This document shows, piece after piece, positions 780 to 61,630 of a DNA stretch of 64,000 bases. Below the pieces are notes generated by a model. That model was given only the letters and a program-made list of their open reading frames with translations. It was not told the origin of the DNA and searched no databases. Origin of the DNA: the human T2T-CHM13v2.0 reference genome, Homo sapiens. How positions within the stretch are numbered: position 1 is the first letter of the stretch; every line of letters begins with the position of its first letter. A program made the position numbers and the translations under genes. The DNA lies in NCBI GenBank assembly GCA_009914755.4, contig CP086569.2, forward strand, positions 9,792,001 to 9,856,000. The letters are read 5' to 3'.

Positions 780-1300
780 CCTCTAGGGCTGACCCTCTCT
801 CCATGGGATAGAACTGCAATGGATTGAGCCATAGGCCCTGGCTGATGATCTAGGGGACTGCAGAAGTGGGTCCAGGACAGTTCAGGTGACAGTTCAAAGC
901 CAATTCCCCAGAGACCAAGGAATGACCAGCTAGGTCCTTTCCCATGATGCCCCACGGCGAACCCCACCTCAGCAATCCTGCCAAAACCCGGGCAGTCATG
1001 TTCAGCCAAACAGCTGAATGAGCTCAGGTAGGAGGTGTACTGCCTGCAGCTGGAGGCTTGACCTTCGTGATCCCAGAACCGCTGGACTGCAGTGGAATGA
1101 GACACCCTGTAGCCTGCAGGGAGAGGAGTCAGGAAGGTTCATGCCAGTCCCACCCTCCCACACACCAGCTCCCCTACCATGCTGGGAGGCATTCCTTACC
1201 GAGGATGCCAACACAGTGCTCCTTCATGATGATTTCACTGTGGAAATAAAGGTTGGGATGAAAGGAAATCATCCTGCCACCGGTAACCGGGATGGCTGAG
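780..1300 (-). pseudogene. Antisense degenerate TSPY-like (NAP-domain) pseudogene fragment A, exon 3/4/5-like with short introns retained (unit 1)
   Basis: Minus-strand translation RMISFHPNLYFHSEIIMKEH (plus 1290-1190) aligns with TSPY exon 3 [21 protein letters not shown]. Further downstream, GLWLNPLQFYP resembles exon 5 [11 protein letters not shown], and GHHGKGPSWSFLGLWG resembles exon 4 [14 protein letters not shown]. Stops and frameshifts are present. Confidence 0.6.
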
Positions 1301-2571
1301 TTCCTCCACCTGCCGGATCAAGGAGAAAGAGGATGGATTCAATGGGACCATCTCAACTAGCCGGGCTGAGGTGGCCTACTAGCTGTAGTGAACCATGAGT
1401 TTCCCCTTCCCAGCTCTCCCACTGAGACAACCCTGGTCCCCAGGGGGACCTCAAACTGACTCAGACACTGGACTCCTCCCACAGACCCAGGCTCCCCAGC
1501 CTGACCTGCAAATCCATCACGTAGCAAAGCAGGACTTCCGCATGCTTTCCGACCCACGCCGACATCTCGTGTGCCAAACAATCTACCTCTGCGCAAGAAC
1601 TCTCCAGAGGATTGGGTGGGCAAGCCTCGTGACGCCTTGCAATTTCGCAAGAACACAGACAATGTGGAACAGGGCCATCTCCCAGACATTTGGCCAGTCA
1701 CCCTTCATTGTTGGCCCTCTATCTCTGTCTGGCGAGGAGGCAACGCCACAACTGTGGTGGTTTTTGGAGTGGGTGGACCCCGGCCAAGACGGCCTGGGCT
1801 GACCAGAGACGGGAGGCAGAAAAAGTGGGCAGGTGGTTGCAGCTGAGGGACGGGAGGGGCCGGGGGTGGTGTGAGGCGGCTGCTTCTCTGAGTTTCTGAG
1901 ATGCAGGAGGCCTTTGTGTGCTGGGTGCTGGACATGCTCCGCTGATGTCCGGGTGTGTGGTGTCCTCTTATCCTAGTCTCCCTGAGGGGTGGGCCTGTCC
2001 ACCTGAGGGAAGCCTTGTAGTTAGAAGCCACAGCAGGGTCGTGCCTGGCGCTCTCCAAGGGAATTGCGTGGGTCCAGAGGAAGTTATACAGGCTCAGGGC
2101 CTACACGCCTTTGAGTGCAGCGCCTGCAGTTGGATGAATGCGCATCTGCGGAGCTGGTGCCCGCCGTCAGGTGGTCGGCAGCCCCATGCGCCGCGAACCC
2201 GTCTTAAGCACCTTGCGTTTCTGGGGTGAGCCTGCTGGAAACAGGCACCGAGAGCAGGGGTGGTTCAATGGCTGGTAATGGCATACAGATTCCCCGTCCT
2301 CCAGGGACGTTCCCAGGGAAACGCGTCCTTCGAATTTGGGCTGTGCGCAAAGGGACCTTGGCGCCGCGATTCTCCCTTGTCAGTGCTGGCCCTGGCTCCC
2401 CTTCCCTACCACGTGCTCCCAGGGCTGCTACAAGCGAGCTGCCCTCACAGCTGCGGGAACGTGGCCTCGGCTCCCACGCTGTCCCCCATCCCCTGCCTCC
2501 TGGCTGACCCCACGTGCCTCCCACCTGGCTCCTCCCCGCAAACAGCCCCCATACCCCCCGAGGCCCGATGA

Positions 2572-3336
2572 CTATCCCCTGCTGCCCGCCATCCCAAATC
2601 GGCAGCCGCAAGGATATGGCTCTGGCTCACAAGGCGGAGATGCTCTGTGGCCTGGGGCATTCACGGAGCCCAGCTCCAAGTGAAGGACCTCCAGCGAGTC
2701 CATTGACGGCCCCGGTGTGCTCGGTCCAGGGCCAGGCTGTGCCCGCTGGCCCTCCTTCTGCCACCCCACGTCGGGCTCCACCTCAACCACCACCTCCACC
2801 TCAGCCATGATGTCTTCCACCTTCAGCACCGCCTCCTCTTCCAAGGCCGCCTCCTTGCTCTGTACCCCGGCCGTCCTCTCCAGCATTGCCTCCAGCCTGA
2901 ACACGGTTTTCTCCTGGGTGCTCCCACAGACCCTGGGCCTGCGCAGCCCAGCCCAGCCCAGCCCATGCCCCGCACCCGTAGGCTCTGGGGGCCCGCTCCC
3001 CAGCAGACCCGCTCCCTGCAAGACCCACGGGCGTCGCCCTGCTGTGAACCTGGTCCCACACCTACGTGGACCCAGGTTTCCTGAGGAGCTCCGCTGGACC
3101 CGCAGATCCCGCACTGGCCAAAGGGCTCCGGTCCCCAGCAGGCTCAACTGCGCACAGGAGCTCGGGAGCCAGAGGCCCCGGCCCTGGGCTTGCAGAGCCC
3201 CACCAACAGGCACCGCAACCGCTGCTGCGGGTGCGGGAGCCTCTGGGTCGTCAAGGCAGCGCACAACAGCGTGCGCGCAGGCCGACAATGGCCAACCCTG
3301 GCGGCTGGCCTCTGGTGTGCCCAGGGCATAGGACAA
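2572..3336 (-). pseudogene. Inverted, diverged TSPY exon-1-like pseudo-exon, head-to-head with the TSPY gene (unit 1)
   Basis: Minus-strand translation [84 protein letters not shown] aligns with TSPY exon 1 [87 protein letters not shown]. The DNA-level similarity is visible too. No downstream exons follow in frame. Confidence 0.75.
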
Positions 3337-3679: not shown

Positions 3680-3959
3680 GCACAGGGCTGCCATGCCCAC
3701 AATTCCAAAGGCCACGCAGCCCGCGTGTGCCCGGATGCCTAGCTACCCGGCACAAGCTCCAAGGGCTTCTCGGAGGAGGCTTGGGCAGGGAAGGCGGGGG
3801 GTGGGGGGGCTGGAGATGCAGGCCCGCCAGTGGCTGTGCCGCCCAGGGAGACGCCCACCGCCCTCCCATTGACTGGCCACGACGGGAGGAAGTCGGCCTG
3901 GGTGCGGCCCCCCGGCCCTTCGCGCGCAGTCTCTTAGGGGGCGCCTGGAAGCCCGGCGC
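3680..3959 (+). promoter_or_regulatory. TSPY CpG-island, TATA-less promoter region (unit 1)
   Basis: Very high CpG/GC density with GC boxes (ggggtggggggg) immediately upstream of the ATG at 3960. The island extends over exon 1 and across to the inverted pseudo-exon. Confidence 0.55.
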
Positions 3960-6522
3960 ATGCGCCCTGAGGGCTCGCTGACCTACCGGGTGCCAGAGAG
4001 GCTGCGGCAGGGTTTCTGTGGCGTGGGTCGGGCAGCACAGGCCTTGGTGTGTGCGAGTGCCAAGGAGGGCACCGCCTTCAGGATGGAGGCTGTACAGGAG
4101 GGGGCGGCCGGGGTGGAGAGTGAGCAGGCGGCTTTGGGGGAGGAGGCGGTGCTGCTGTTGGATGACATAATGGCGGAGGTGGAGGTGGTGGCGGAGGAGG
4201 AGGGCCTCGTGGAGCGGCGGGAGGAGGCCCAGCGGGCACAGCAGGCTGTGCCTGGCCCTGGGCCCATGACCCCAGAGTCTGCACTGGAGGAGCTGCTGGC
4301 CGTTCAGGTGGAGCTGGAGCCGGTTAATGCCCAAGCCAGGAAGGCCTTTTCTCGGCAGCGGGAAAAGATGGAGCGGAGGCGCAAGCCCCACCTAGACCGC
4401 AGAGGCGCCGTCATCCAGAGCGTCCCTGGCTTCTGGGCCAATGTTGTATCCTTCTCAGTGTTTCTTCGTCCTTTCTAGTGGAGAGGTGCTCTCGGGGAAG
4501 TGTAAGTGACCGATGGGCAGCTCGGCGTCGATGTGACTCTTTGGGGAACAAAGGGGAGTTGCCACGGACCAATGTGGCTGTGGAAAGCCGGAGCAGGCGT
4601 GGGTACTATTGTCCTGCATGCGGCAGAGAAACCCTTGGTGATGCCGAGCAGCAGACGTTTGGGGCATCTTTTTGAAGAGCAGAAGCGAGTTCAGAGCGGA
4701 AGAGGTTTTTCAGTGAATGAAGCTATTTTTAAGGGAGTGTGATTGCTGCCCCTTGCTAGTCCGATCTGGGACTGGGCGTCTTCGGCTATAAGCAGATTCT
4801 GCCACTCCTCAGACACCAGCAAGTCTCTGCAAATCGCGCCTCCCCATGTCAGTGCAGTCAGCCTCAGAATCATACACCCTCTGTGAACACAGGAGGCCTT
4901 AGTTTACGGGGAGGGGGAGGCGAAAGGAGATCATACATGGAAGCAGATCTGAGAAATCCCCTACCCCAGCCTCTGGGTGCTCTTAGGCCTTCTTCCCTGT
5001 TGCTCCTCGCTTTCCCTTCCATCGTGTGTAAAGTCTCTTTGACCTAAATCAGATTGCAAACCACCCCCAGATGTCAGCCCTGATCACTGACGAAGATGAA
5101 GACATGCTGAGCTACATGGTCAGCCTGGAGGTGAGGCCAGGAAGACTGGGGCTAGAGGGTTTAGCGGGGGAGGGTAAGGGAAATAATTCATTCCTGTAAG
5201 CAAGAGTGAGCACCTCACCCGAAAACCTATCTAAGCTTTCTCCACCTTGTCCTGACAGGTGGAAGAAGAGAAGCATCCTGTTCATCTCTGCAAGATCATG
5301 TTGTTCTTTCGGAGTAACCCCTACTTCCAGAATAAAGTGATTACCAAGGAATATCTGGTGAACATCACAGGTGACAGGTGGCTCCCAGGATGGGTAGTGG
5401 AAGGAAGATGGTGGGTGGATCATTGCCAACGGGATCCAGCCCCCTTCCCACAAAAACTCCTGTCTCTGTAGAATACAGGGCTTCTCATTCCACTCCAATT
5501 GAGTGATATCCGGATTATGAAGTGGAGGCCTATCGCCGCAGACACCACAACAGCAGCCTTAACTTCTTCAACTGGTTCTCTGACCACAACTTCGCAGGAT
5601 CTAACAAGATTGCTGAGGTGAGTCCTCACTGGGAAACATGAGGAATGACCCCGTGTGTTCCCAGCTGCTTGGGTCACCTTTCTGAGCCCTGATGAGGCCT
5701 TTCCCGATTGAGTCCCCTGACAGATCCTATGTAAGGACCTGTGGCGCAATCCCCTGCAATACTACAAGAGGATGAAGCCACCTGAAGAGGGAACAGAGAC
5801 GTCAGGTGAGCCGTTAGTTGGCACTGGAGCTGTTTGATGCCCAGTATAAGGGGGTTGACACACCTGCCTATTCAGGGAGCCTGGGTGCTCATTTCAGAAA
5901 TGTAGAAATTGAGGCTCCTTTCGTACATGTAGAAATTCCTTGAGAGGAAGACAGAGAGTGACAGAATCCAGGACGTTCATGGCATTGGGCTGAAAAGGCA
6001 CGTTAGAGACTGCACTGCAAAGCGGGTGATAGCTGTGGAGTCTTAAGCCCAGTGAAGAATCGTCCATTTCCAGAATCAATGAGAAGTAAAGCTGAAAATC
6101 ATTCAGTTCAGTCTGTGGCACTTGATTCCACGGCTGTCAACCCCACCGGCAGTCATCCCGCCAACCCCATGAGATTGGGCTCCCTGAATGTGCGTCCTGG
6201 TCATCCTTGCCCCAAACCACAAAGGACTGTTTAGATTGATGGATTTCCTTAAGCTGTTGCCCCATCAGACTTGTGTGTGCTTTTAGGGCCCAGTGCATCT
6301 TGTTAGCTGACTCCCCTCACAGACAATACTGGGAATGGGGCAGGGATTGCGCAGAACAGTTTGTAACACGTGGTAGGAGGAAGTTTAAGGGATCACAAAT
6401 GGGGAAGGGATATCCTTTTCTCAGCGGGCCCCACAATTGAAACATTTCAAAGTATGGCTCAGAGAAAATGCGTTTTAACATGAGTTTGTGTTTCTCTAGG
6501 GGACTCCCAGTTGTTGAGTTGA
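3960..6522 (+). pseudogene. TSPY: TSPY copy with a premature stop. Six-exon structure is intact, but TGG>TGA at 5504-5506 (about Trp237) truncates the NAP domain.
   Basis: Exons 3960-4445, 5053-5130, 5259-5370, 5472-5617, 5724-5805, 6500-6522 with GT/AG splice sites. The translation matches human TSPY1 as recalled ([19 protein letters not shown]...[79 protein letters not shown]). Units 2 and 3 have gagtggtatcc where unit 1 has gagtgatatcc. The ORF track lacks the exon-4 ORF that is present in the other two units. Confidence 0.7.
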
Positions 6523-6692
6523 ATATGATGGAGCATCAGATTTTACCTAATACAGCAGAACTCCTAAGAAGTTACAGCCATATGCAGGACGGCAGTACTC
6601 AGCATGGTCTTATGCACAGGAACTAAAGGAAAAAGAGATCGAGTCACAAAAATTCAGGAAGAGGGGGTAAATGTGGATTGTATGGAATGAAA

Positions 6693-6698
6693 AATAAA
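6693..6698 (+). other. AATAAA polyadenylation signal, ~170 nt after the TSPY stop (unit 1)
   Basis: The aataaa hexamer is the first canonical signal downstream of the stop at 6520-6522. It is consistent with a short 3'UTR and a ~2.8-kb transcription unit. Confidence 0.5.
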
Positions 6699-6705
6699 CA
6701 TTCTC

Positions 6706-6774
6706 AAGGATGTGTGACTCTGTGTCTGTGTGTGTGTGTGTCTTTGTGTTTGTGTGTGTGTGTGTGTGTGTCTT

Positions 6775-6805
<31 letters not shown>

Positions 6806-6812: not shown

Positions 6813-9463
6813 CTTTATTCGGGTGTCATAATGAATTGATCAATCCACGTGCTTTATTCTCTGCATGGAAATAACCAGTCTGCGTTGGAGCTGGGCCTCT
6901 AAAGTTGTAGAGTGAATGGGTGTGGGATGTGTTGGGATTCTTCCTACAGGACAGAGTGGGAGAGGTAAAAGCAAAAGACAGCTTAGTTGGAGGCTGACTT
7001 CGTCCTATGGAAGCAGAGATAGTTCAAGGAAAGGGGTTACTGGGTTTCCAGGGCCCAGTTTGCTGGGACCTCCAAAATCCTTCATTTTGGGTATCATCAT
7101 ACACAGTAGCTAAGCACAGGATGATGGAAATCTTAAAGTTCGCTTTCGTGTTGAATCCACATGTTCTTTTAAAGGTGAATGCATGATCCTTTTCTGGGAC
7201 AATCAGCCTCTCAGGACTTCTGAAACATCAACGTGAGAAGAAATGGGCATGTAAGGTGTATGGAGGGACTGTGGGAAAGGTGACAGAGGCATGTGGGAAG
7301 GCATTCAGGATACGCTTTTGGCAGAGATGACTAAGGGAAAACAGAAACTTACAGAAGTGAGGGGAAAGGGGGTGGATTAGTGGAATATAAGATTGTTGGA
7401 GAATCCATCCATGGACTCTCTTGTCACTTGATGACCCAGGATATGGACACTCTTGTTGATGTTTACATCTTTAGTTGTTTTAAGCTTTTCTCCAAGATTC
7501 TGTGTTAGGTGAGGAGCCAATAACGTATGTAGCTAACAACAGTACGAGTGCATTTTGTGCTCTTGCAAAGTCTAGTGAGGCTCTATTCTCCCTCGTGATT
7601 GGCACTGCAGATTGTATCTGGACCCAGGGCCCCTAAATTTTCTGTGGCCTCTTCAGCATAGTTTGCCTAAGGTTTAGAACGTAAAGCGAATATAGTTGCG
7701 GAATATGTTTTGCAAGCCTCACACAGGAGGACAAAACATACAGCTTTCATTTGTGAGTGGGAGGCTGCTTCCCAGGAATACGTGTGTCTGCACAAGACAA
7801 GGAGTTGCCTCTGTCAAGGATGGGGCAGGAGGATTTCAGTGTTGGAGGCAGAACTTTCTTTCCTGTTCCCAGATGAAACAGTTCCAACACGAGCATCCAT
7901 GTTGACCACACGCTACTAGAGTGCTAACATTGCTGTCCCGTATAGACTCCGGTCAGCACAGCTTCTGTGAGAAGAGCTATGTTGTTTCAGGGAAGAGGGT
8001 TTGACAGTCAAAGTTCCTGAATCTGTTGTGGTGCCTGCAATATGCATTCTACCCCTCCTGCTCGGTGTCAAAGCAGTTGAACTTTGAAAATCTATCGCCC
8101 GGTTTTGTCCCTGCTCCTATGCAGACCTCTGAAGCTCTGGAGCGGGAGTCTTGTCCTCCTCTGACTACCGTCCCCCTGACCCACAAACACAGGAGAAACA
8201 GGTGTTCTAAGCAAATTATTCTGAAAACAGTCGGAACACTTTGGCCCCCTCAAGCTGCCCACTATCCTACTGTGTGCATGTCAAAGACACTGTGGTCCAG
8301 TACGGTATCCCTATAGCGGCAATGGGGCAACAGATTGGTGTGTGCACTCTGGGCAACTCAGATTAGGAAACGTCTGGGGACTTGCGTATAACGAAGTCGT
8401 CTTAAAACATGTTGCCCCAAATTTAAGGCATAGGAAAATGTTGAGGAAAGGGTCTTGCAATGATTTTTCTAGGAGGTAAATAGATAAGAAAATGACCGTA
8501 AATAGATGCCAGGGCTAGTTTTGGAGCTAGCCTGTTTTAAAGTGGTGGTAGGGGAGGAGGTTTTTCCAAGGCAGGTAGCAAACCAGGAACTGTCTACGAT
8601 GGATGGGCGTGCCATGGGTTGGTGGCTCAGCCATATTGCCACCCCACGGAGTCGATGCAGCAGACTGGGCTTCTTCCTTGAATCCTACGTGCAATTCAGT
8701 CTAGTGATTTCACATGAGATCCCTTCTTCTGGTATTATCACAGATCGTGCTGAATTATACAGGCTGTGTATTGCTTCTTCCACTGAATATCCGTGCACGT
8801 GGGCCACAGATGCTAAGGGCACTGACAAATTTGCACCGTGCCTCAGTAACTCGGAAGCACATCTGTGATTTGTACCGACAGGGACTTGGTGTCTTTTCGT
8901 GTTTAAAGTAGCACGTGTGTGTTTGTGGTTGCGTATGTTTATTTCTCTGTGCGGGTTTGTATATTTTCTCTGACTCCACCTATGTCTCCGTGGTTCCGAT
9001 ATTTTTCCACACTCCCTGCGGCAATTTGCACATGCCTATCTCTACAACCATTGTAGATTTTGTATCTGTGTCTTTGAACATCTGTCACTCTCTCTCCCTT
9101 CCTTTTTTCTTTTCCTTCCTTTACACCCCTCCTTTCATCCTTCCCTTGCTTCCCCACCACACTCTCTCCATCTGTATCGTCTATGTTTCTATTCTCTATC
9201 TGGGTTTACTTTCTAATTCTGAATTCAAGGGCATTGAATTGAAAAGAAGCACTCTTCGTACTTTTATGTGTTTTAACTCATTTGGGGAATTTGGCGTGGT
9301 ATTATTTACAGGGTTCTCTCTGCCCTTTCTCATTGTTCTCCCCAGCCGGGGCTGTTATTATGTGAAAGCTGGTTTCCTTCATCACATCGCGTAGGCTCTA
9401 ATGATGTTTCGTTTATTTTGATTCTCCTCACACTACATAGTTTTAATTTACCTAATGTGACTG

Positions 9464-24287: not shown

Positions 24288-26850
24288 ATGCGCCCTGAGG
24301 GCTCGCTGACCTACCGGGTGCCAGAGAGGCTGCGGCAGGGTTTCTGTGGCGTGGGTCGGGCAGCACAGGCCTTGGTGTGTGCGAGTGCCAAGGAGGGCAC
24401 CGCCTTCAGGATGGAGGCTGTACAGGAGGGGGCGGCCGGGGTGGAGAGTGAGCAGGCGGCTTTGGGGGAGGAGGCGGTGCTGCTGTTGGATGACATAATG
24501 GCGGAGGTGGAGGTGGTGGCGGAGGAGGAGGGCCTCGTGGAGCGGCGGGAGGAGGCCCAGCGGGCACAGCAGGCTGTGCCTGGCCCTGGGCCCATGACCC
24601 CAGAGTCTGCACTGGAGGAGCTGCTGGCCGTTCAGGTGGAGCTGGAGCCGGTTAATGCCCAAGCCAGGAAGGCCTTTTCTCGGCAGCGGGAAAAGATGGA
24701 GCGGAGGCGCAAGCCCCACCTAGACCGCAGAGGCGCCGTCATCCAGAGCGTCCCTGGCTTCTGGGCCAATGTTGTATCCTTCTCAGTGTTTCTTCGGCCT
24801 TTCTAGTGGAGAGGTGCTCTCGGGGAAGTGTAAGTGACCGATGGGCAGCGCGGCGTCGATGTGACTCTTTGGGGAACAAAGGGGAGTTGCCATGGACCAG
24901 TGTGGCTGTGGAAAGCCGGAGCAGGCGTGGGTACTATTGTCCTGCATGCGGCAGAGAAACCCTTGGTGATGCCGAGCAGCAGACGTTTGGGGCATCTTTT
25001 TGAAGAGCAGAAGCGAGTTCAGAGCGGAAGAGGTTTTTCAGTGAATGAAGCTATTTTTAAGGGAGTGTGATTGCTGCCCCTTGCTAGTCCGATCTGGGAC
25101 TGGGCGTCTTCGGCTATAAGCAGATTCTGCCACTCCTCAGACACCAGCAAGTCTCTGCAAATCGCGCCTCCCCATGTCAGTGCAGTCAGCCTCAGAATCA
25201 TACACCCTCTGTGAACACAGGAGGCCTTAGTTTACGGGGAGGGGGAGGCGAAAGGAGATCATACATGGAAGCAGATCTGAGAAATCCCCTACCCCAGCCT
25301 CTGGGTGCTCTTAGGCCTTCTTCCCTGTTGCTCCTCGCTTTCCCTTCCATCGTGTGTAAAGTCTCTTTGACCTAAATCAGATTGCAAACCACCCCCAGAT
25401 GTCAGCCCTGATCACTGACGAAGATGAAGACATGCTGAGCTACATGGTCAGCCTGGAGGTGAGGCCAGGAAGACTGGGGCTAGAGGGTTTAGCGGGGGAG
25501 GGTAAGGGAAATAATTCATTCCTGTAAGCAAGAGTGAGCACCTCACCCGAAAACCTATCTAAGCTTTCTCCACCTTGTCCTGACAGGTGGAAGAAGAGAA
25601 GCATCCTGTTCATCTCTGCAAGATCATGTTGTTCTTTCGGAGTAACCCCTACTTCCAGAATAAAGTGATTACCAAGGAATATCTGGTGAACATCACAGGT
25701 GACAGGTGGCTCCCAGGATGGGTAGTGGAAGGAAGATGGTGGGTGGATCATTGCCAACGGGATCCAGCCCCCTTCCCACAAAAACTCCTGTCTCTGTAGA
25801 ATACAGGGCTTCTCATTCCACTCCAATTGAGTGGTATCCGGATTATGAAGTGGAGGCCTATCGCCGCAGACACCACAACAGCAGCCTTAACTTCTTCAAC
25901 TGGTTCTCTGACCACAACTTCGCAGGATCTAACAAGATTGCTGAGGTGAGTCCTCACTGGGAAACATGAGGAATGACCCCGTGTGTTCCCAGCTGCTTGG
26001 GTCACCTTTCTGAGCCCTGATGAGGCCTTTCCCGATTGAGTCCCCTGACAGATCCTATGTAAGGACCTGTGGCGCAATCCCCTGCAATACTACAAGAGGA
26101 TGAAGCCACCTGAAGAGGGAACAGAGACGTCAGGTGAGCCGTTAGTTGGCACTGGAGCTGTTTGATGCGCAGTATAAGGGGGTTGACACACCTGCCTATT
26201 CAGGGAGCCTGGGTGCTCATTTCAGAAATGTAGAAACTGAGGCTCCTTTCGTATATGTAGAAATTCCTTGAGAGGAAGACAGAGAGTGACAGAATCCAGG
26301 ACGTTCATGGCATTGGGCTGAAAAGGCACGTTAGAGACTGCACTGCAAAGCGGGTGATAGCTGTGGAGTCTTAAGCCCAGTGAAGAATCGTCCATTTCCA
26401 GAATCAATGAGAAGTAAAGCTGAAAATCATTCAGTTCAGTCTGTGGCACTTAATTCCACGGCTGTCAACCCCACCGGCAGTCATCCCACCAACCCCATGA
26501 GATTGGGCTCCCTGAATGTGCGTCCTGGTCATCCTTGCCCCAAACCACAAAGGACTGTTTAGATTGATGGATTTCCTTAAGCTGTTGCCCCATCAGACTT
26601 GTGTGTGCTTTTAGGGCCCAGTGCATCTTGTTAGCTGACTCCCCTCACAGACAATACTGGGAATGGGGCAGGGATTGCGCAGAACAGTTTGTAACACGTG
26701 GTAGGAGGAAGTTTAAGGAATCAGAAATGGGGAAGGGATATCCTTTTCTCAGCGGGCCCCACAATTGAAACATTTCAAAGTATGGCTCAGAGAAAATGCG
26801 TTTTAACATGAGTTTGTGTTTCTCTAGGGGACTCCCAGTTGTTGAGTTGA
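24288..26850 (+). CDS. TSPY: TSPY (testis-specific protein Y-encoded, NAP/SET family), apparently intact copy. CDS in 6 exons, 308 aa.
   Basis: Exons 24288-24773, 25381-25458, 25587-25698, 25800-25945, 26052-26133, 26828-26850. Splice junctions read as canonical GT...AG. The spliced translation ends ...[20 protein letters not shown]. Confidence 0.85.
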
Positions 26851-27040: not shown

Positions 27041-27070
27041 TGTGACTCTGTGTGTATGTGTGTGTGTGTC

Positions 27071-27108
<38 letters not shown>

Positions 27109-32997: not shown

Positions 32998-33488
32998 AGG
33001 GCCTAACTCCCTTGGGTAGTGCTGCAGAATATAGAGCCACAGGCCCTGGCTGATGATCTGGTGGACTGGGCAAATTGGTCGTGACAGGTCAGGTTCTGGT
33101 TCAAAGCCAATTCCTCCGATGCCAAGGAATGTCGAAGAAGGTCCTTTGCCATGATGCCCCATAGCTGCCCCACCTCAGCAATCGTGCCGTAACCTGGGCC
33201 CTCACAGTCAGACAACCAGCTGAAGAAGCTCAGGCAGTGACCTGCGGGAAACTCGGGCTTTCACCTGCATGACCCTAGAACCACTGGACTGCAGTGGAGC
33301 CAGTCGCCCTGTATCCTGGAGGGAGACGAGTCAGGAAGGCGCACGCCAGGCCCAGCTCCCGAGGTACTACCCCCTCTACTCCTCAGGGAGGATGCCAACG
33401 CAATACTCCTTAGTCGTCACTTTGTTTCCGAAGTAAATGTTGTGATGAAAGGCAAACTTCTTCCTACCCCTTGTATTCAGGGTGGCCG
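32998..33488 (-). pseudogene. TSPY-like pseudogene fragment B (unit 2)
   Basis: Offset 20308 from unit 1. Confidence 0.6.
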
Positions 33489-44598: not shown

Positions 44599-47177
44599 AT
44601 GCGCCCTGAGGGCTCGCTGACCTACCGGGTGCCAGAGAGGCTGCGGCAGGGTTTCTGTGGCGTGGGTCGGGCAGCACAGGCCTTGGTGTGTGCGAGTGCC
44701 AAGGAGGGCACCGCCTTCAGGATGGAGGCTGTACAGGAGGGGGCGGCCGGGGTGGAGAGTGAGCAGGCGGCTTTGGGGGAGGAGGCGGTGCTGCTGTTGG
44801 ATGACATAATGGCGGAGGTGGAGGTGGTGGCGGAGGTGGAGGTGGTGGCGGAGGAGGAGGGCCTCGTGGAGCGGCGGGAGGAGGCCCAGCGGGCACAGCA
44901 GGCTGTGCCTGGCCCTGGGCCCATGACCCCAGAGTCTGCACTGGAGGAGCTGCTGGCCGTTCAGGTGGAGCTGGAGCCGGTTAATGCCCAAGCCAGGAAG
45001 GCCTTTTCTCGGCAGCGGGAAAAGATGGAGCGGAGGCGCAAGCCCCAGCTAGACCGCAGAGGCGCCGTCATCCAGAGCGTCCCTGGCTTCTGGGCCAATG
45101 TTGTATCCTTCTCAGTGTTTCTTCGGCCTTTCTAGTGGAGAGGTGCTCTCGGGGAAGTGTAAGTGACCGATGGGCAGCTCGGCGTCGATGTGACTCTTTG
45201 GGGAACAAAGGGGAGTTGCCACGGACCAGTGTGGCTGTGGAAAGCCGGAGCAGGCGTGGGTACTATTGTCCTGCATGCGGCAGAGAAACCCTTGGTGATG
45301 CCGAGCAGCAGACGTTTGGGGCATCTTTTTGAAGAGCAGAAGCGAGTTCAGAGCGGAAGAGGTTTTTCAGTGAATGAAGCTATTTTTAAGGGAGTGTGAT
45401 TGCTGCCCCTTGCTAGTCCGATCTGGGACTGGGCGTCTTCGGCTATAAGCAGATTCTGCCACTCCTCAGACACCAGCAAGTCTCTGCAAATCGCGCCTCC
45501 CCATGTCAGTGCAGTCAGCCTCAGAATCATACACCCTCTGTGAACACAGGAGGCCTTAGTTTACGGGGACGGGGAGGCGAAAGGAGATCATACATGGAAG
45601 CAGATCTGAGAAATCCCCTACCCCAGCCTCTGGGTGCTCTTAGGCCTTCTTCCCTGTTGCTCCTCGCTTTCCCTTCCATCGTGTGTAAAGTCTCTTTGAC
45701 CTAAATCAGATTGCAAACCACCCCCAGATGTCAGCCCTGATCACTGACGAAGATGAAGACATGCTGAGCTACATGGTCAGCCTGGAGGTGAGGCCAGGAA
45801 GACTGGGGCTAGAGGGTTTAGCGGGGGAGGGTAAGGGAAATAATTCATTCCTGTAAGCAAGAGTGAGCACCTCACCCGAAAACCTATCTAAGCTTTCTCC
45901 ACCTTGTCCTGACAGGTGGAAGAAGAGAAGCATCCTGTTCATCTCTGCAAGATCATGTTGTTCTTTCGGAGTAACCCCTACTTCCAGAATAAAGTGATTA
46001 CCAAGGAATATCTGGTGAACATCACAGGTGACAGGTGGCTCCCAGGATGGGTAGTGGAAGGAAGATGGTGGGTGGATCATTGCCAACGGGATCCAGCCCC
46101 CTTCCCACAAAAACTCCTGTCTCTGTAGAATACAGGGCTTCTCATTCCACTCCAATTGAGTGGTATCCGGATTATGAAGTGGAGGCCTATCGCCGCAGAC
46201 ACCACAACAGCAGCCTTAACTTCTTCAACTGGTTCTCTGACCACAACTTCGCAGGATCTAACAAGATTGCTGAGGTGAGTCCTCACTGGGAAACATGAGG
46301 AATGACCCCGTGTGTTCCCAGCTGCTTGGGTCACCTTTCTGAGCCCTGATGAGGCCTTTCCCGATTGAGTCCCCTGACAGATCCTATGTAAGGACCTGTG
46401 GCGCAATCCCCTGCAATACTACAAGAGGATGAAGCCACCTGAAGAGGGAACAGAGACGTCAGGTGAGCCGTTAGTTGGCACTGGAGCTGTTTGATGCGCA
46501 GTATAAGGGGGTTGACACACCTGCCTATTCAGGGAGCCTGGGTGCTCATTTCAGAAATGTAGAAACTGAGGCTCCTTTCGTACATGTAGAAATTCCTTGA
46601 GAGGAAGACAGAGTGACAGAATCCAGGACGTTCATGGCATTGGGCTGAAAAGGCACGTTAGAGACTGCACTGCAAAGCGGGTGATAGCTGTGGAGTCTTA
46701 AGCCCAGTGAAGAATCGTCCATTTCCAGAATCAATGAGAAGTAAAGCTGAAAATCATTCAGTTCAGTCTGTGGCACTTGATTCCACGGCTGTCAACCCCA
46801 CCGGCAGTCATCCCACCAACCCCATGAGATTGGGCTCCCTGAATGTGCGTCCTGGTCATCCTTGCCCCAAACCACAAAGGACTGTTTAGATTGATGGATT
46901 TCCTTAAGCTGTTGCCCCATCAGACTTGTGTGTGCTTTTAGGGCCCAGTGCATCTTGTTAGCTGACTCCCCTCACAGACAATACTGGGAATGGGGCAGGG
47001 ATTGCGCAGAACAGTTTGTAACACGTGGTAGGAGGAAGTTTAAGGGATCACAAATGGGGAAGGGATATCCTTTTCTCAGCGGGCCCCACAATTGAAACAT
47101 TTCAAAGTATGGCTCAGAGAAAATGCGTTTTAACATGAGTTTGTGTTTCTCTAGGGGACTCCCAGTTGTTGAGTTGA
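44599..47177 (+). CDS. TSPY: TSPY variant copy with an 18-bp in-frame duplication in exon 1 (extra EVEVVA) and a His>Gln change (cac>cag at 45047); otherwise intact.
   Basis: Exons 44599-45102, 45710-45787, 45916-46027, 46129-46274, 46381-46462, 47155-47177. Tandem gcggaggtggaggtggtg x2 at 44812-44847. ORF track shows [21 protein letters not shown] here versus [15 protein letters not shown] in units 1-2. Confidence 0.8.
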
Positions 47178-47365: not shown

Positions 47366-47403
47366 TGTGTGACTCTGTGTCTGTGTGTGTGTGTGTGTGT
47401 GTC

Positions 47404-47442
<39 letters not shown>

Positions 47443-53805: not shown

Positions 53806-56157
53806 AGTTCCTCCACCTGCCTGTCCAAGAAGGAGAAACAGGGCTGTGAAGGGGCAATTTCATCTAGGTTGGCTGAGGTGGCATTCTAGCCGGGGTGAAG
53901 CATGCGTTTCCCCTTCCCAGCTTTCCCACTGAGACACACCTGAGCCCCAGAAGGACCTCAACCTGACCAGGACCTTAGCACCCTCCCCCAGACCCAGGCT
54001 TTCCATCCTGACCTGCAAACCCAACATGCAGCTTTGAAGGAATTTCTCATGTTTTCTGAGCTACTTTCTCTCACCAGAAAGAATCAGGACTTTTAAAGTG
54101 TGCTTTATGCCAACTTAAATTTTTCATTTTGACTACCTCATGTTTCTGATGAGGCATGTATTTTTAAATTTATTTTCACCCTTATTGTACCTCTGTGATA
54201 AACTGCTTGCTTAGATTCATACCATAATTATCTTTCAGGTTACTGTTCTGTTCCTAAAGATTCACTGAAACGAAGAATTCTATATATGCTTGTATCTTTC
54301 AGCAACTGTATGTCAGATAGCACTGCACATTACTGCAGAAATCACATATAAATGTCCAAAGGGAGATGAAGAAGAAGAAAGCAAGCTTTAAAATCTGTAC
54401 ATTCCTAACAGCGTATCAGAAACTCACAAATAACAGTGAAAACAAAGAATGATCACAGCCAATACCATTTCATACTTAGACTGAAATATGCAACTTCAAA
54501 AGAAAAGAAAGTTAAGAACTTTCTTTTGTAAAAATTTGTAAATATAGTTTGTAAAAATTTAAAAATATAGTTTTAAAAATTTTCCTATATAGATAAAATT
54601 ATTGGTAACTTTGTCTCACTAGAAAACATAAACATAAACAAAAATCCATCCTTTGCATATGTGTAAATATACATAGTTTTATTTCCATCAGTTATGACAT
54701 GTAAGCAAGTAGTAAAGTTAAAGTACAATAAAATGATATATGGAATTTTCTCAGTCTCAAAATATTCCATGGAGACTATCAATTTTATGAAAACCATAAA
54801 CAATGCTTCATGAAACTACATTATACAGTGCCATTTAGTATTTTACTTACGTTTTAAATAATCAACAATTAAAGGGAATTCGTCAACATTATTTATTATG
54901 AATACCGTTAATTTCCTTCAGTAATCCTATTGAAATTAAGTATTTTAAATAAAACATTAAAAACAAATTATATTGACTGATTTCAGCTTTGGATGAAATC
55001 ATACTTGTGTATTTGTAGTAACGGGAAGTATAACTTTCTCCTCACAATTAATCTTTTATAACATTGGTGTTTTTGTTTTCTCTGACACCAACATTGTGAG
55101 ATCGCACAGGTTTACTGCATGCATGCATTACATGCCTCCAGAGAGTAGGCTTCAAATATATGAAAAATTATATTTATGAAAAAATTCTAGGAAAGGGAAT
55201 GGTGAAATGGAAGAGAATTTCTCTCTTGTTAACTGTTGGTCACTGGATTTGTATATACTTGGATATAGACACATATTAGCACACTGTGAGTTTGCCCATG
55301 TACATATACACTTATATGAGAAACCCATAATATATGGGTTGTATAATGTTTTAATTAATCCACAATTGTATATGCGTGAAATTAGATAAGCGGTTACCTT
55401 TTCTTTACTCAATTTGATGGAAAGCCAAAAAAATATGTCAACCTTTATTTCAATTAATCCAATACCATTAACTGCTGGTAGCTTCATTCTCCTTGTTCTC
55501 TTACGGCAACCGGAAAGTTAATTCTCACTCTAATTTAGCTTTCAAGGTGCGATCAACAAGAGTGTCACCTTGCTGTGGATTGTGACCTCTGACTCCACCT
55601 CTGTCTTCCTTTTGCAGTCCTACCTTTGCATAGGTAACAAACTTTGTACACGGTTAAAAGGCTAAAAGTTCAGTGAAATGTCAAGCCATGCTGTGAAATG
55701 TTCCATAGTTTCTATATCTCTAATTGTCCTTTGATGTTATAGAGGCAAGAAAAATAATTCAATGTTTTTCTTAGTATCTAGTCCAATGCACTCTTTCTTC
55801 ATAATACTGCAAACAAGGCACTGACATGGAAACGTGGCTGGACGTCTCAAAATCTCTTCTCATTAATTACCATTATGTTAATCACTGTTGCCCACAACTG
55901 GAATTGGACTGTGAAATCCCCTGGTGGAAATTGCTATAATGGCTCAAACTACTGGAATGACTATCTTTTTTTACCTGAAAATATCTGATGAGCATAGACA
56001 TATGCTATATACAGGAACATATTGTACATTAACAACATACCGTCACTGCCACTCAATAATAGGTATCCCAAACCTTTGAGCCAAACTGATCTCAGGTGCT
56101 CCCACAAACCAAGCTTTTTCCTCCACAGATTTCTTATGTCAAAAAGCCGCAACTCCA

Positions 56158-57269: not shown

Positions 57270-60091
57270 TTCCCAAACAATTAAAAATTCCCAATAGAAG
57301 AAGCATTAATTATATCAAAAAGTGGCGGACCAAGAAGGAACTATTAGCCTCATATCTCAAGAAAGACTCTAGTCAAGGCCTAGGGACTACTCATGAAAAG
57401 AGTTTAATAGCCGACTCTCCCAGTGGATCTGGATTCCACCGGACTGTATCTTCACAGTAAGGGTGAAACATAAGTAAACCCATTCCTATTTCCAAGCTCA
57501 AGGAACTTTGGTCAAAGTTCTCTTGGAGCTGAGCAGAACAAGGAGGCAAACAGAAACAATTTGTGTCCCTGAGAAGTCATGGCCACAGGCTGGCTATCAC
57601 ACAGATTGTCAAGCCAGTTCCATATTGCATGGGTATTACAGAAAATCTCAAAACATAAATTTGTGTGTGTGTTGTCCCAGAGTAGCAGGATCTGGCAGAA
57701 GGAAATTTCCTTCTAACCCTCAAACAATTCACATAAATCTTGTTACATTTGGGATTTTACCATTTGTTTCATCAATGAGAATGGACTTTAGTTTTCATAT
57801 CTTTTTCTACACTCAGTTTATGTCTTGTTGGCATGAAAGTTCTGCTTGCCTTACACAAGGAGTTTAGGAATTTCCCTTTTTTATTCTATAGAATTCTTCA
57901 TATATATTGAAATGCTCTGCCTGGGGAAAAAATCTGAGCCTGTTGTTTTATCTCTAGGAAGAATCCTTTATTTCCTTGAACATTTACAAGACCATTCAGA
58001 TTAGATATGTCTTCTTGTGTTAATTTTACTAAGCTATATACATAGCTTATATTTATATCATATATAATCTTATATAAATATAAGATATAAATATAAAAAT
58101 TATAAATAAATATGAAATATATATAGAAAGCTATATATATGTCTATATATGTAGACACATTATAAAAATCTGTCTATTTGATCTAAGTTTTCAAATTTGT
58201 AAGTTAAGGTGTTAATGATATTTCCTTATTAGCTTCTTAATCTATGCTGTATCTATGGTTGTGTATCTTTTAAATTCTTAGTTTTATCTGTGCTTTCTCC
58301 CTTTTTTTCTAAACTTGACTGAGGGTTGCATCATTTATTATATTTCTCCAACAACCAAAGTTTAGCTTTGTATGTTTTACTAATTTTCTCTCCATCATTA
58401 TTCCCACCCTTCAGTTTTTCAGAATTGATTCTGTTGTTTCTCTTCTAATTCTTTTTTTGAAATATCTAGTACATTAATTTTCAAGTTATTAGAGAAATAT
58501 TTTTCTGTAAACTCCTATTGTAATATCACTTTTCTTGCTACTCACAAACTTAATTTTTAATGTTGGCAGTATCATTAAGTTCTAAGTACATTTCAATTCC
58601 TAGTATGATAATCCATGAATTGCTAAGAAATAGTGGTTATAATTTTGTTGTTCAATTTCCACTTACTTTTATTTTAACTTGGGCTAATTGAAAATTCTTT
58701 ACTAATTTTTTAAATCCTTGAACCCAAGAGACGGAGGTTGCAGTGACCTGAGATGAAGCCACTGCATTCCAGACTGACAGAGTGGAAGTAAATTTGAAAA
58801 CAAAACAAAACAAAACAAAACAGTCACTGGAAATATAATAAAATACATAAATTTGGGATGTAAAATGTTAATCATGATAAAATAAACTGAACTTCTTTGT
58901 ATAAGTTATACAAATTATTCATTGTATATAATTCCTGTAATCTAATTATAGTGCCTTTACACCTCAGGGTTTAAAACGACTCCAACCTTTTTCTGTTTCT
59001 CCAATTCAAATAACTATTTTAAGGTTTAATCTTTAGTAATATTTTGTAGTAATATTTTTGAAGATATTTGACCAGGATGATTTGCTTATATACTTATCTG
59101 ATATCTCCCTTTCTTTTGAATACATATTTTATTACCCACTGATTAGATGTAAGTTTAAGAATTTCGAATAGGGATTTAAATCTAAATTCTACATTTGAAT
59201 TTATAGGAGTCAGTGAGTCCAGGAAGTGCCATTATGCGCAGACCAATATCTGGCAATGGCACTAGGGGACAAATAAGCTTTACCAGTCTCAAAGCCCTGG
59301 CTACTACAGTGAATCCACCCTTCTCCTGGATCTTATCTACTTCAGCAAAAGAAGGCCACCCACTAAACCAGGCCCTTGTACTTTGGGTGGAAACTCCTAA
59401 GTCCTCTAGTCTCCTCAAACAGACAGCCAGGCTGCCAATTTCCACAATAATAATTTCTATAGCACTGAGTCTTTGGTAGCCTTGTAACTATAGCTACTGA
59501 TGCTACATCTGGTCCCTGTATGATAAAACACCAGAGCAACAGAAACAAAAATATTGACTGAAGCCTTCTAAAATCTCTCTAAATACACTTTCAATAAATA
59601 TGTTTTTTTTTTACAACACAACTGCGTTCAGCTTCCTGAACTAATGCTTGGCCTTCAATTGTTTTCATAGTTGAAATTGATTCAAAAGTGTACATTTAAC
59701 ATGAAAGTGAATACATAATTTCATGTATCAGCAACTACAATTTTCAAAACGATGCAAAATACAAATGTGAAACTGTATTTGTGAAATATACCATTTTTTC
59801 AAATTATATTTTCGTACCTACCCAGGAACAGAATTTTTTATAACTGTCTGCATTTTCTCCTCATGTGGGGCAAAAACAGCATCAGAGTTCTTGAATAATT
59901 TATGAAAGACAGGATGGCAATACTATACAAGTTTTACCTATACATAATACTGTATTTAGTTAATGAATAATTAGTTTCAAAAGCCTATTAAAGTATGGAG
60001 TAACTAAATAAAATATATTTAGTTCAATAATTCTAAAATACGTTTACATGAAGAAAATAAAACAATGATTAAAATACATAAACAAACAAAT

Positions 60092-60375
60092 GAGGCTGGC
60101 ATGGCGGCTCACACTTGGATGCCCAACATTTTGGGAGGTCAGTGCAGGCGGATCACAGGAGTACCAGACCAGCCTGGCAAATATGGTGAAACCAGTCTCG
60201 ACTAAAAATACAAAAATTAGCAGGACATAGTGGCATGTGCCTGTAATCCCAGCTCCTTGGAAGGCTAAGGCGTGGGAATCCTGTGAAGCTGGAGGGAGAG
60301 GTTGCAGTGAGCCGAGACTTTTCCCCTTCACTCCAGCCTGGATGACACAGTGAGACTCCATCTGAAAACACACAC
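60092..60375 (+). mobile_element. Full-length Alu present only in unit 3. Units 1 and 2 retain just its last ~110 bp (19700-19806, 40028-40126) because of a ~390-bp deletion.
   Basis: ggctggcatggcggctcacacttggatgcccaacattttgggaggtcagtgcaggcggatcacaggagtaccagaccagcctggcaaatatggtgaaaccagtctcgactaaaaatacaaaaattagcaggacatagtggcatgtgcctgtaatcccagctcc...ccagcctggatgacacagtgagactccatctgaaaa, followed by (CA)n. Confidence 0.8.
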
Positions 60376-61630
60376 ACGCACACACACATACACCCCAAAA
60401 ACTGATGAATAAAAAAAAATCCGTATTCGAAAACATGCTCACAGGCTAACTCCCATATCTAACACACACACACACAAAATTCCTTGAAAACGAAAGTTCC
60501 ACAAGGGGCAAATAAGAAAACAAATTTAACACCCCCCCATATAAAGTAGAAAGAGCAACCTGAAAAGAACCACAGGGGAAAACAATTCAAAATTTACAAC
60601 TATCTACCCTAAAAGAAGCTGAAAGTCCCTCAAAAACTTTCTAGAGACCATGTCCTTGTGATACAAAATGATCATTAAAACTGGCAGGAGTAGAAGAATA
60701 AAAATGCATCCTAAATCTTGCTAAACACTTCAAGTCTCCCATAAGAATTGTAATGGGAAATGGATCAGTCGGCAGCTTTTTCCATACAATTATGAACAAA
60801 TTATATTTCTTCATACTTAAATTTGTTTTTTCAATATTCTAAGAAATCAACTTTTATATTAATAGTAGGTGATGTAAGAAAGCAGGTCTTTATCAAGATA
60901 ACTGACACTGGATGTCCATACCATTACTCAAGTGGGCCTTAATTCCCAGCCAGGTTCCCTCCCTGGACACACACTGAAGGTCCCCAGCCATTTGGCAATC
61001 TCTTCACATTCCCAGCCCTGGAGGTAGTCCTAAAATACATGTACCTGAAGAAAATAAAACATTGCCTCACACTGGAGCCCAGTGTGGTCCTCCAGATTCC
61101 GTGTGAGGTGGACTAACTTATATGGGAAGGCAGGGCAGTGGGAGTGAGGATGGCAGAGAGGATAACACATGTCAAGGCAGCTGGGATCATGGAAACAAAA
61201 CATGACTGGCCTGGGAGAAACACTGTGAAAGGACATAGACCTAGGTGGGCCTCAGAGGAACATCCTCGTGGAGAAAAAGGGGGCCCTGGTTGATCTCAAA
61301 ATGAGCCCCAGGTGGTCGCAGGTCTTACTGCAGGGCAGGGAGCTGGTGAGTGATGATGAGACAGCTATCCCTTAAGCCCTGCTTGTCACCCACTGACTTT
61401 AGCCACATATGCATCATAGTGGCTTAAGGTGCCCCAATCCTGAAATGTGGGTGTTACATGTCCCTGATGGGCCTCTCTCCCCCAACCCACGGATTGCCTG
61501 GGATTGCTCACTGCAGTCTCCTCCAGGATCCTTGGGTTCTCCATGTGGGGCCCAGATCCAGGTCAAAAGGCCTCTCAGTTCCCAGCCCTTCCAAGCCCTA
61601 GGCTGCTCGCCTGGCCTCCTCTCTGTTCCG

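What the first reader, a model, noticed from the sequence alone, without database searches (positions are those of the whole stretch)
5504..5506. Unit-1 TSPY copy carries a TGG>TGA nonsense change in exon 4 (about Trp237), so it is a pseudogene embedded in the array
Units 2 and 3 read ccaattgagtggtatccggat (IEWYPD), while unit 1 reads ccaattgagtgatatccggat (IE*). Everything else in this copy is conserved: promoter, splice sites, other exons. The stop would remove the C-terminal third of the NAP domain. The ORF track confirms it: the 87-aa ORF spanning exon 4 (25706-25969, 46035-46298) has no counterpart in unit 1. An otherwise pristine copy with a single inactivating change suggests recent decay, or a variant that gene conversion could spread or erase.
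Basis: seen in the sequence. Interest (0 to 1): 0.55.

Follow-up and report, generated by a model that had tools for sequence, protein, structure and literature searches.

The report
Known TSPY pseudogene with one stop codon
One copy of the human Y-chromosome TSPY gene near the inner end of its tandem array carries a single in-frame stop codon (Trp237Stop), but the T2T-Y reference annotation already lists this copy as the pseudogene TSPY10P, so the finding is correct and ordinary.

Summary
Window 5504-5506 reads TGA where the other two array copies read TGG. The triplet is in frame as codon 237 in exon 4 of a six-exon TSPY gene with canonical splice sites. It is the only coding difference between copy 1 and copy 2, whose product is identical to human TSPY3/TSPY10.

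The window is human Y. Gene spacings of 20,328 and 20,311 bp match T2T-Y Supplementary Table 5 exactly. That places the window at T2T-CHM13v2 chrY:9,792,001-9,856,000, the last three units of the TSPY array plus its diverged flank.

Copy 1 is the locus at chrY:9,795,914-9,798,716, which the T2T consortium manually curated as "TSPY10P, pseudogene". NCBI also modelled its exact 236-residue truncated product (XP_047303209.1).

The stop lies 111 nt before the next exon junction and 193 nt before the last, so nonsense-mediated decay is predicted. Any translated product would lack 52 of the 184 residues that align to the SET structure, including a tryptophan conserved from SET to ape TSPY. All five alternative isoforms retrieved and read here include this codon, and skipping exon 4 shifts the frame.

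Copy 1 is no more diverged than its neighbours. Verdict: real, correctly interpreted, already known, low interest.

The parts
3914..6716 (+). Transcription unit of array copy 1, equal to TSPY10P of the T2T-Y annotation (chrY:9795914-9798716)
   Evidence: The ends are inferred from the window offset of 9,792,000. That offset follows from exact agreement of gene spacings (20,328 and 20,311 bp) between the window and T2T-Y Supp. Table 5. AATAAA lies at 6693.
3960..4445 (+). Exon 1 coding part (codons 1-162), starting at the ATG
   Evidence: tblastn and spliced CDS; GT donor.
5053..5130 (+). Exon 2 (codons 163-188)
   Evidence: AG/GT boundaries.
5259..5370 (+). Exon 3 (codons 189-225 plus 1 nt)
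   Evidence: AG/GT boundaries.
5472..5617 (+). Exon 4 (146 nt, codons 226-274), which carries the stop
   Evidence: AG/GT boundaries. The length is not a multiple of 3, so skipping it shifts the frame and gives ...NITDPM*.
5504..5506 (+). TGA = codon 237; the G>A change is at 5506 (c.711G>A, p.Trp237Ter)
   Evidence: G is present at this site in units 2 and 3, GRCh38 TSPY3 and TSPY10, and 20 metagenome-derived human TSPY contigs.
5724..5805 (+). Exon 5 (codons 275-301 plus 1 nt)
   Evidence: AG/GT boundaries.
6500..6522 (+). Exon 6 coding part and the normal TGA stop
24288..26850 (+). Comparator: intact copy 2 from ATG to stop, with TGG at 25832-25834; its 308-aa product is identical to TSPY3/TSPY10
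   Evidence: P0001. T2T-Y names it TSPY3 at 9816242.
44599..47177 (+). Comparator: intact copy 3 from ATG to stop, with TGG at 46161-46163; its 314-aa product carries an 18-bp in-frame duplication and His144Gln
   Evidence: T2T-Y names it TSPY9 at 9836553.
54537..54570 (.). Proximal edge of the homogeneous array; beyond it the repeat unit continues at about 94% identity
   Evidence: Window 53-57 kb is 100% identical to the GRCh38 flank after TSPY10.

Best explanation
Array copy 1 is a genuine unprocessed TSPY pseudogene. It is the third-from-last unit at the centromere-proximal end of the human Y TSPY (DYZ5) array in the T2T-Y (HG002) assembly, annotated there as TSPY10P. A single non-CpG G>A transition turned Trp237 (TGG) into TGA on an otherwise ordinary TSPY3/TSPY10-type copy. 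The promoter, 5'UTR, all ten splice sites and the poly(A) signal are in place, so the copy is probably still transcribed in testis. The stop lies 111 nt upstream of the exon 4-5 junction and 193 nt upstream of the last junction, so the mRNA should be removed by nonsense-mediated decay. Any protein made would be 236 residues long. It would keep the N-terminal region and the first part of the NAP/SET fold but lose the conserved Trp, the FFxWF segment and the NPLQYY segment at the C-terminal end of the fold, and so should not be a working NAP-type chaperone. The net effect is one fewer functional copy out of about 45. Shown here: the sequence, frame, uniqueness of the lesion, identity with the annotated locus, and what part of the fold is lost. 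Inferred: transcription, NMD and loss of function.
For: TGA is in frame and is the only CDS difference from copy 2. Copy 2's product is identical to TSPY3/TSPY10 (P0001). The exact 236-aa truncated product exists as XP_047303209.1 on the 62,460,029-bp record, which is the length of T2T-Y. T2T-Y Supp. Table 5 lists chrY:9795914-9798716 as TSPY10P, pseudogene by manual curation, followed by TSPY3 at 9816242, TSPY9 at 9836553 and TSPY15P at 9856759. The spacings of 20,328 and 20,311 bp equal the window's ATG spacings. [quoted passage not shown] TSPY residues 105-288 align to human SET structures 7MTO/2E50 (E about 1e-38), with Trp237 opposite a SET Trp. Residues 237-303 are near-identical across the human, gorilla, orangutan and chimpanzee TSPY sequences aligned. 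The five alternative isoforms read here (221, 264, 290, 294 and 304 aa) all include this codon. Skipping exon 4 shifts the frame to an immediate stop. G is present at this site in 24 other human TSPY sequences. The stated T2T-Y base accuracy is under 1 error per 10 Mb.
Against: No reads or RNA data could be examined here, so the base call rests on the assembly's published quality, and transcription and NMD are untested. The supplement does not say why TSPY10P was called a pseudogene; that the reason is Trp237Ter is my deduction from it being the only CDS lesion. The window's placement on T2T-Y is inferred from spacings and the 236-aa protein, not from a direct sequence comparison. NCBI's automatic pipeline modelled the locus as protein coding (an XP_ isoform), so the two annotations disagree on biotype.
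Confidence: 0.9

Rival explanations
1. The A at 5506 is an assembly or polishing error, or a somatic change of the HG002 cell line, within a near-identical repeat array. The copy would then be intact in the germline.
For: The array units are about 99% identical, which is the setting where reads can be misplaced. No other human TSPY sequence retrieved here carries A. No reads were available to me.
Against: The T2T-Y paper reports Q73.8 accuracy, full ONT/HiFi support and concordance with paternal HG003 reads at the structural level. The curators kept the base and reclassified the gene between annotation v4 and v5. Unit 1 has other private variants nearby (3932, 4469, 6568), so reads from this unit are distinguishable. 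The 20 metagenome contigs are presumably collapsed consensus sequences, in which a 1-in-45 allele would not be seen, so their G does not count against A.
Confidence: 0.04
2. The copy is still functional: it yields a truncated 236-aa TSPY that escapes decay and acts as a variant or dominant-negative partner of full-length TSPY, or the UGA is read through.
For: The truncated product keeps residues 105-236, including the segment that aligns to the long N-terminal helix through which SET dimerises (the dimerisation role is from published knowledge of SET/NAP structures). Pfam still scores the NAP domain above threshold in the 236-aa product (66.6 bits against a cut-off of 28.6). NCBI modelled it as a protein isoform. 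The promoter and splice sites are intact.
Against: The stop is 111 and 193 nt upstream of two exon junctions, the textbook NMD configuration. The lost 52 fold residues include the most conserved motifs. NCBI curators downgraded a chimpanzee TSPY locus with a 217-aa ORF and a 'slightly truncated' NAP domain to transcribed pseudogene. The UGA-U context is not a known strong read-through context, and I did not look for a SECIS element (own knowledge). The next in-frame Met is at residue 291, so re-initiation gives nothing useful.
Confidence: 0.04
3. The stop marks an old, positionally stable pseudogene at the weakly homogenised edge of the array, shared across Y haplogroups, rather than a recent private mutation.
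For: Edge units differ from each other by about 0.8-1%, far more than typical between-Y divergence. Unit 1 carries 26 private substitutions in 13.7 kb. [quoted passage not shown] GRCh38 also has pseudogenes embedded near array ends: TSPY6P (9507550-9510370) just before TSPY10, and TSPY7P (their placement within the GRCh38 array is partly from memory).
Against: In GRCh38 the last unit is TSPY10 without the 18-bp duplication, and TSPY6P is a duplication-bearing (2.82 kb) copy, so the end of the array is not arranged the same way. Liftoff did not map either GRCh38 pseudogene to this locus. Age cannot be estimated from one coding change.
Confidence: 0.25

Closest known systems
TSPY10P in the T2T-CHM13v2.0 (HG002) Y annotation, chrY:9795914-9798716 (Rhie et al. 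2023, Supplementary Table 5); also NCBI model XP_047303209.1
   Same: I conclude it is the same locus. It is the third-from-last array unit, has the same spacings to the next two genes, has no 18-bp duplication, and its 236-aa conceptual product is identical to XP_047303209.1.
   Different: Nothing in the sequence. The supplement gives no reason for the pseudogene call; this analysis supplies it (a single p.Trp237Ter).
GRCh38 array-embedded pseudogenes TSPY6P (chrY:9507550-9510370) and TSPY7P
   Same: They are unprocessed TSPY copies sitting inside the homogeneous array among coding copies, one of them next to the proximal end.
   Different: TSPY6P is a 2.82-kb copy of the duplication-bearing type, whereas this copy is 2.80 kb. 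Their lesions could not be read here because the fetched GRCh38 loci do not reach them. Liftoff placed them on other T2T-Y units, which proved intact.
Chimpanzee LOC134809394 (TSPY), reclassified by NCBI as a transcribed pseudogene
   Same: It is a TSPY copy whose best ORF (217 aa) has a truncated NAP domain and is treated as a transcribed pseudogene rather than a gene.
   Different: It is in a different species with a different lesion. Non-human ape TSPY uses a downstream ATG.
TSPY15P, the diverged unit flanking the array
   Same: [quoted passage not shown]
   Different: TSPY15P is about 92-94% identical to array genes and lies in the diverged flank (its unit starts at window ~60852 and the gene lies beyond 64000). 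TSPY10P is 99.75% identical to a coding copy and has only one coding lesion.

Membership tests
TSPY gene copy of the human Yp 20.4-kb tandem array (DYZ5) | Tandem repeat unit of about 20.3 kb with one gene per unit, all in the same orientation | tested here: met
   Self-alignment: units offset by 20,331 and 20,308 bp at 99.2% and 98.9% identity; one + strand gene per unit.
TSPY gene copy of the human Yp 20.4-kb tandem array (DYZ5) | Six-exon gene encoding a protein identical or near-identical to human TSPY | tested here: met
   Six exons, all GT-AG. Read through the stop, the product equals TSPY3/TSPY10 (P0001) at the other 307 residues.
TSPY gene copy of the human Yp 20.4-kb tandem array (DYZ5) | NAP/SET domain (Pfam PF00956) | tested here: met
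   PF00956 scores 70.4 bits for the intact copy and 66.6 bits for the truncated product. Residues 105-288 align to SET structures at E about 1e-38.
Unprocessed pseudogene | Retains the introns, promoter and genomic context of the parent gene | tested here: met
   The exon-intron structure is identical to copies 2 and 3. There is no private change in the ~900 bp upstream of the inferred TSS.
Unprocessed pseudogene | Disabling lesion in the reading frame relative to functional paralogues | tested here: met
   In-frame TGA at codon 237. All five alternative isoforms read include the codon. Skipping exon 4 shifts the frame.
Unprocessed pseudogene | Signs of relaxed constraint (excess coding changes) | tested here: inconclusive
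   Only 1 private CDS change, against about 1.75 expected from the unit's 0.19% private divergence. Unit 1 is no more diverged than units 2 and 3 or GRCh38 TSPY10.
Unprocessed pseudogene | No functional protein product | not testable with these tools
   This needs testis RNA or proteome data from a carrier.
Nonsense-mediated decay substrate | Premature stop more than 50-55 nt upstream of the last exon-exon junction | tested here: met
   The stop ends at CDS nt 711, the exon 4-5 junction is at 822 and the exon 5-6 junction at 904, giving distances of 111 and 193 nt (computed).
Nonsense-mediated decay substrate | Reduced steady-state mRNA from the allele | not testable with these tools
   No expression data are accessible.
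T2T-Y locus TSPY10P | Same position in the array and same sequence | tested here: met
   Spacings of 20,328 and 20,311 bp match. A 46-nt 5'UTR offset is consistent for units 1 and 3. The window start equals 64,000 x 153. The 236-aa product is on record for that chromosome. The T2T-Y DNA itself could not be fetched for a direct comparison.

The most novel reading that the evidence does not exclude
The Trp237Ter copy is not inert. It would be transcribed from its intact promoter, and a fraction of transcripts would escape decay. The resulting 236-aa protein would keep the N-terminal helix by which NAP/SET proteins dimerise but lack the C-terminal part of the fold, so it could pair with and weaken full-length TSPY. 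Alternatively, the allele is an old, positionally fixed marker showing that the last units of the array are shielded from homogenisation across Y haplogroups.
Probability: 0.06. Interest if true: 0.35.

Novelty: already known. Interest (0 to 1): 0.1.

Why it matters
It matters little beyond bookkeeping. TSPY dosage has been linked to spermatogenesis, so counts of functional copies should exclude this one: ddPCR and read-depth assays still count it. The case also shows that the curated T2T-Y annotation (pseudogene) and NCBI's automatic model (236-aa isoform) disagree for this locus. If the allele proved to be shared across haplogroups, it would be a convenient marker for how weakly the array edges are homogenised. 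That question is already being addressed with population-scale Y assemblies.

Tried and rejected
(1) I tried to fetch the T2T-Y locus through the exact 236-aa product. No gene is on record, probably because only the longest product per gene is indexed. The 308-aa product returned only two GRCh38 places, TSPY3 and TSPY10. These served as comparators but are not the source of the window: the array part is 99.3% identical and only the flank is 100%.

(2) I looked for independent evidence of the A allele. Allele-specific ORF products (42, 40 and 109 aa) were looked up by exact sequence. Neither the A nor the control G versions are in the collection, so the test says nothing.

(3) I scanned metagenome contigs for both alleles. 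The 20 contigs of human TSPY contamination all carry G. That supports G as the majority and likely ancestral state, but if, as I assume, these contigs collapse the array to a consensus, they could not show a 1-in-45 copy. The scan of bacterial and archaeal genome contigs found nothing.

(4) Literature: 'TSPY10P' occurs in no main text in the library. Hallast et al. 2023 and the published Nature version of Rhie et al. are not held. The population-scale Y preprint has no supplements held. The curation file of the multicopy-gene paper covers non-human apes only for TSPY.

(5) Considered and rejected: a wrong frame or exon assignment (the spliced CDS reproduces the protein exactly); rescue by alternative splicing; a CpG hotspot origin (the context is TGG-T, not CpG); accelerated decay of the unit.

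(6) I did not run structure prediction or the large protein searches. The alignment to solved SET structures already shows what is lost.

Full report
**Observation.** The sequence at 5495-5515 reads CCAATTGAGTGATATCCGGAT. The same 21-mer occurs at 25823 and 46152 with G in place of the A at 5506, and no match is expected by chance. The three sites are 20,328 and 20,329 bp apart. A self-alignment shows the window is a tandem repeat of about 20.3 kb. Units 1 and 2 are 99.17% identical over 34 kb, and units 1 and 3 are 98.92% identical. From about 54,537 onward the repeat continues at only about 94-95% identity.

**Gene structure and frame.** It later proved identical to the database entry for TSPY3/TSPY10 (P0001). 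It hits five exon blocks on the + strand of each unit at near 100% identity. Reading the boundaries and joining the exons gives a six-exon gene in unit 1:
- exons at 3960-4445, 5053-5130, 5259-5370, 5472-5617, 5724-5805 and 6500-6522;
- AG acceptors and GT donors throughout;
- a CDS of 927 nt.

TGA at 5504-5506 is codon 237 in frame (c.711G>A, p.Trp237Ter). It is the only CDS difference between unit 1 and unit 2. Unit 3 is also open, but carries an 18-bp in-frame duplication (VEVVAE) and His144Gln, giving 314 aa.

**Where the window comes from.** Three lines of evidence place it.
- An exact look-up found the 236-aa truncated product as XP_047303209.1, 'testis-specific Y-encoded protein 3-like isoform X2 [Homo sapiens]'. 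It sits on a record of 62,460,029 bp, which is the stated length of T2T-Y.
- Supplementary Table 5 of Rhie et al. lists the end of the array: chrY:9795914-9798716 'TSPY10P, pseudogene, manual curation' (protein-coding TSPY3 in the previous release), then TSPY3 at 9816242, TSPY9 at 9836553 and TSPY15P at 9856759. The spacings of 20,328 and 20,311 bp equal the ATG-to-ATG spacings in the window (24288-3960 and 44599-24288).
- With a 46-nt 5'UTR the window start falls at 9,792,001, which is 64,000 x 153 + 1. TSPY15P then starts just beyond the window end, consistent with the diverged fourth unit beginning at 60,852.

Window 53-57 kb is 100% identical to the GRCh38 sequence downstream of TSPY10, while the array part differs by about 0.7%. 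So this is the centromere-proximal edge of the array on a Y haplotype other than the GRCh38 one. [quoted passage not shown] The primer table names these as TSPY10P and TSPY15P. The paper also notes that all but one TSPY pseudogene fall outside the clade of coding copies. TSPY10P is the obvious candidate for the exception, which is my inference. The supplement does not say why TSPY10P was called a pseudogene. Trp237Ter is the only coding lesion, so it must be the reason.

**How ordinary the copy is otherwise.** From ATG to stop (2,563 bp) unit 1 differs from GRCh38 TSPY10 by 4 substitutions and from TSPY3 by 5. It differs from its own neighbour, unit 2, by 12. I compared it with 22 other human TSPY sequences: two GRCh38 loci and 20 metagenome contigs that contain human TSPY DNA. 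Against these, the transcript has four private changes: 3932 C>T (5'UTR), 4469 G>T (intron 1 +24), 5506 G>A (the stop) and 6568 A>G (3'UTR). All 22 have G at the stop site.

Over 13.7 kb, unit 1 has 26 private substitutions. Unit 2 has 31, GRCh38 TSPY10 has 29 and unit 3 has 14. There is therefore no sign of faster decay.

With 0.19% private divergence, about 1.75 changes are expected in the CDS and one is seen. Of all single-base changes in the CDS, 4.1% are nonsense, or 2.5% of transitions. A neutral copy at this divergence thus has roughly a 4-7% chance of carrying a stop. One such copy among about 45 is unremarkable, and if anything fewer than neutrality would give. The change is not at a CpG (context TGG-T).

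**Likely consequence.** The stop ends at CDS nt 711. The exon 4-5 junction is at nt 822 and the last junction at nt 904, so the stop is 111 and 193 nt upstream of exon junctions. By the standard 50-55-nt rule the transcript should undergo nonsense-mediated decay; this step is inferred, not shown.

No escape route is apparent:
- The five alternative isoforms read here (221, 264, 290, 294 and 304 aa) all contain IEWYPD.
- Exon 4 is 146 nt, so skipping it shifts the frame to ...NITDPM*.
- The next in-frame Met is residue 291.

If translated, the product would lose residues 237-308. TSPY residues 105-288 align to the solved human SET structures (7MTO, 2E50; E about 1e-38), and Trp237 sits opposite a SET tryptophan. 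The lost 52 aligned residues include the FFxWF and NPLQYY segments. Residues 237-303 are almost invariant across the human, gorilla, orangutan and chimpanzee TSPY sequences aligned. Pfam still detects the NAP domain in the stump (66.6 bits), so it is a truncated fold rather than no fold.

There is a precedent for how such a copy is classified. NCBI curators reclassified a chimpanzee TSPY locus with a 217-aa ORF and a 'slightly truncated' NAP domain as a transcribed pseudogene.

**Rivals.**
- *Assembly error or cell-line mutation.* This cannot be excluded without reads. It is unlikely given the published accuracy (Q73.8), the read support and the curators' deliberate reclassification.
- *A working truncated protein or read-through.* This is not supported by anything seen, but it is untested.
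- *Old and shared across haplogroups versus recent and private.* This remains open. The edge units are about 1% diverged from each other, and a population study reports positional stability of TSPY protein variants. On the other hand, GRCh38's array end is arranged differently.

**Verdict.** The feature is already annotated in the reference it comes from. Novelty: already known. Interest: low.

Noticed in passing
window 44810-44827 and 45048 (unit 3 gene, 44599-47177): The last array copy has an 18-bp in-frame duplication (VEVVAE repeated) plus His144Gln, giving a 314-aa product. T2T-Y curates it as protein-coding TSPY9, yet this exact 314-aa sequence is absent from the 15-billion-protein collection.
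   Followed up: partly
window 54537-54570 and onward to 64000: This is the proximal edge of the homogenised array. Identity to array units drops from about 99% to about 94%, with a ~485-bp deletion (unit positions 18239-18725) and a ~390-bp insertion (59885-60275). Window 53-57 kb is 100% identical to the GRCh38 flank after TSPY10. The diverged unit leads to TSPY15P just past the window end.
   Followed up: partly
window 790-2931 (-) and 12815-13142 (-), repeated in units 2-4 (e.g. 21121-23262, 33123-33450): Each repeat unit holds two degenerate TSPY-like relics on the minus strand (37-65% amino-acid identity to TSPY). One lies head-to-head about 1 kb upstream of the TSPY start codon. The two relic blocks are about 72% alike at DNA level, which suggests an old internal duplication. 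From memory they may overlap the FAM197Y/CYorf16 transcripts, but I did not test this.
   Followed up: no
window 7752-9058 (unit 1, 1-2.3 kb downstream of the gene): 18 of unit 1's 26 private substitutions fall in this 1.3-kb patch, about 1.4% against 0.19% for the unit as a whole. A few are shared with single metagenome contigs. This looks like a tract copied in from a more diverged unit, or a locally variable segment.
   Followed up: partly
window about 6740-6800, 27070-27090, 47397-47411: The (GT)n microsatellite just after the poly(A) site differs in length between the three units; unit 1 is longest, by 14-18 bp.
   Followed up: no
loci L003-L022 (metagenome contigs): Twenty metagenome-assembly contigs (ENA ERZ/O-prefixed records, 1.3-21.8 kb) contain human TSPY array sequence, which is male human DNA contamination. 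All carry G at the site of interest.
   Followed up: partly
window 3960-6522 against 24288-26850 and GRCh38 loci L001/L002: Neighbouring units are not each other's closest relatives. The unit 1 gene is closer to GRCh38 TSPY10 and TSPY3 (4-5 substitutions) than to the adjacent unit 2 (12 substitutions), so variant types are interleaved at the array end.
   Followed up: partly
T2T-Y annotation of this locus (window 3914-6716): The annotations disagree. The consortium's curated set calls it pseudogene TSPY10P, while NCBI's automatic annotation issued a protein model (XP_047303209.1, 236 aa, 'isoform X2').
   Followed up: partly
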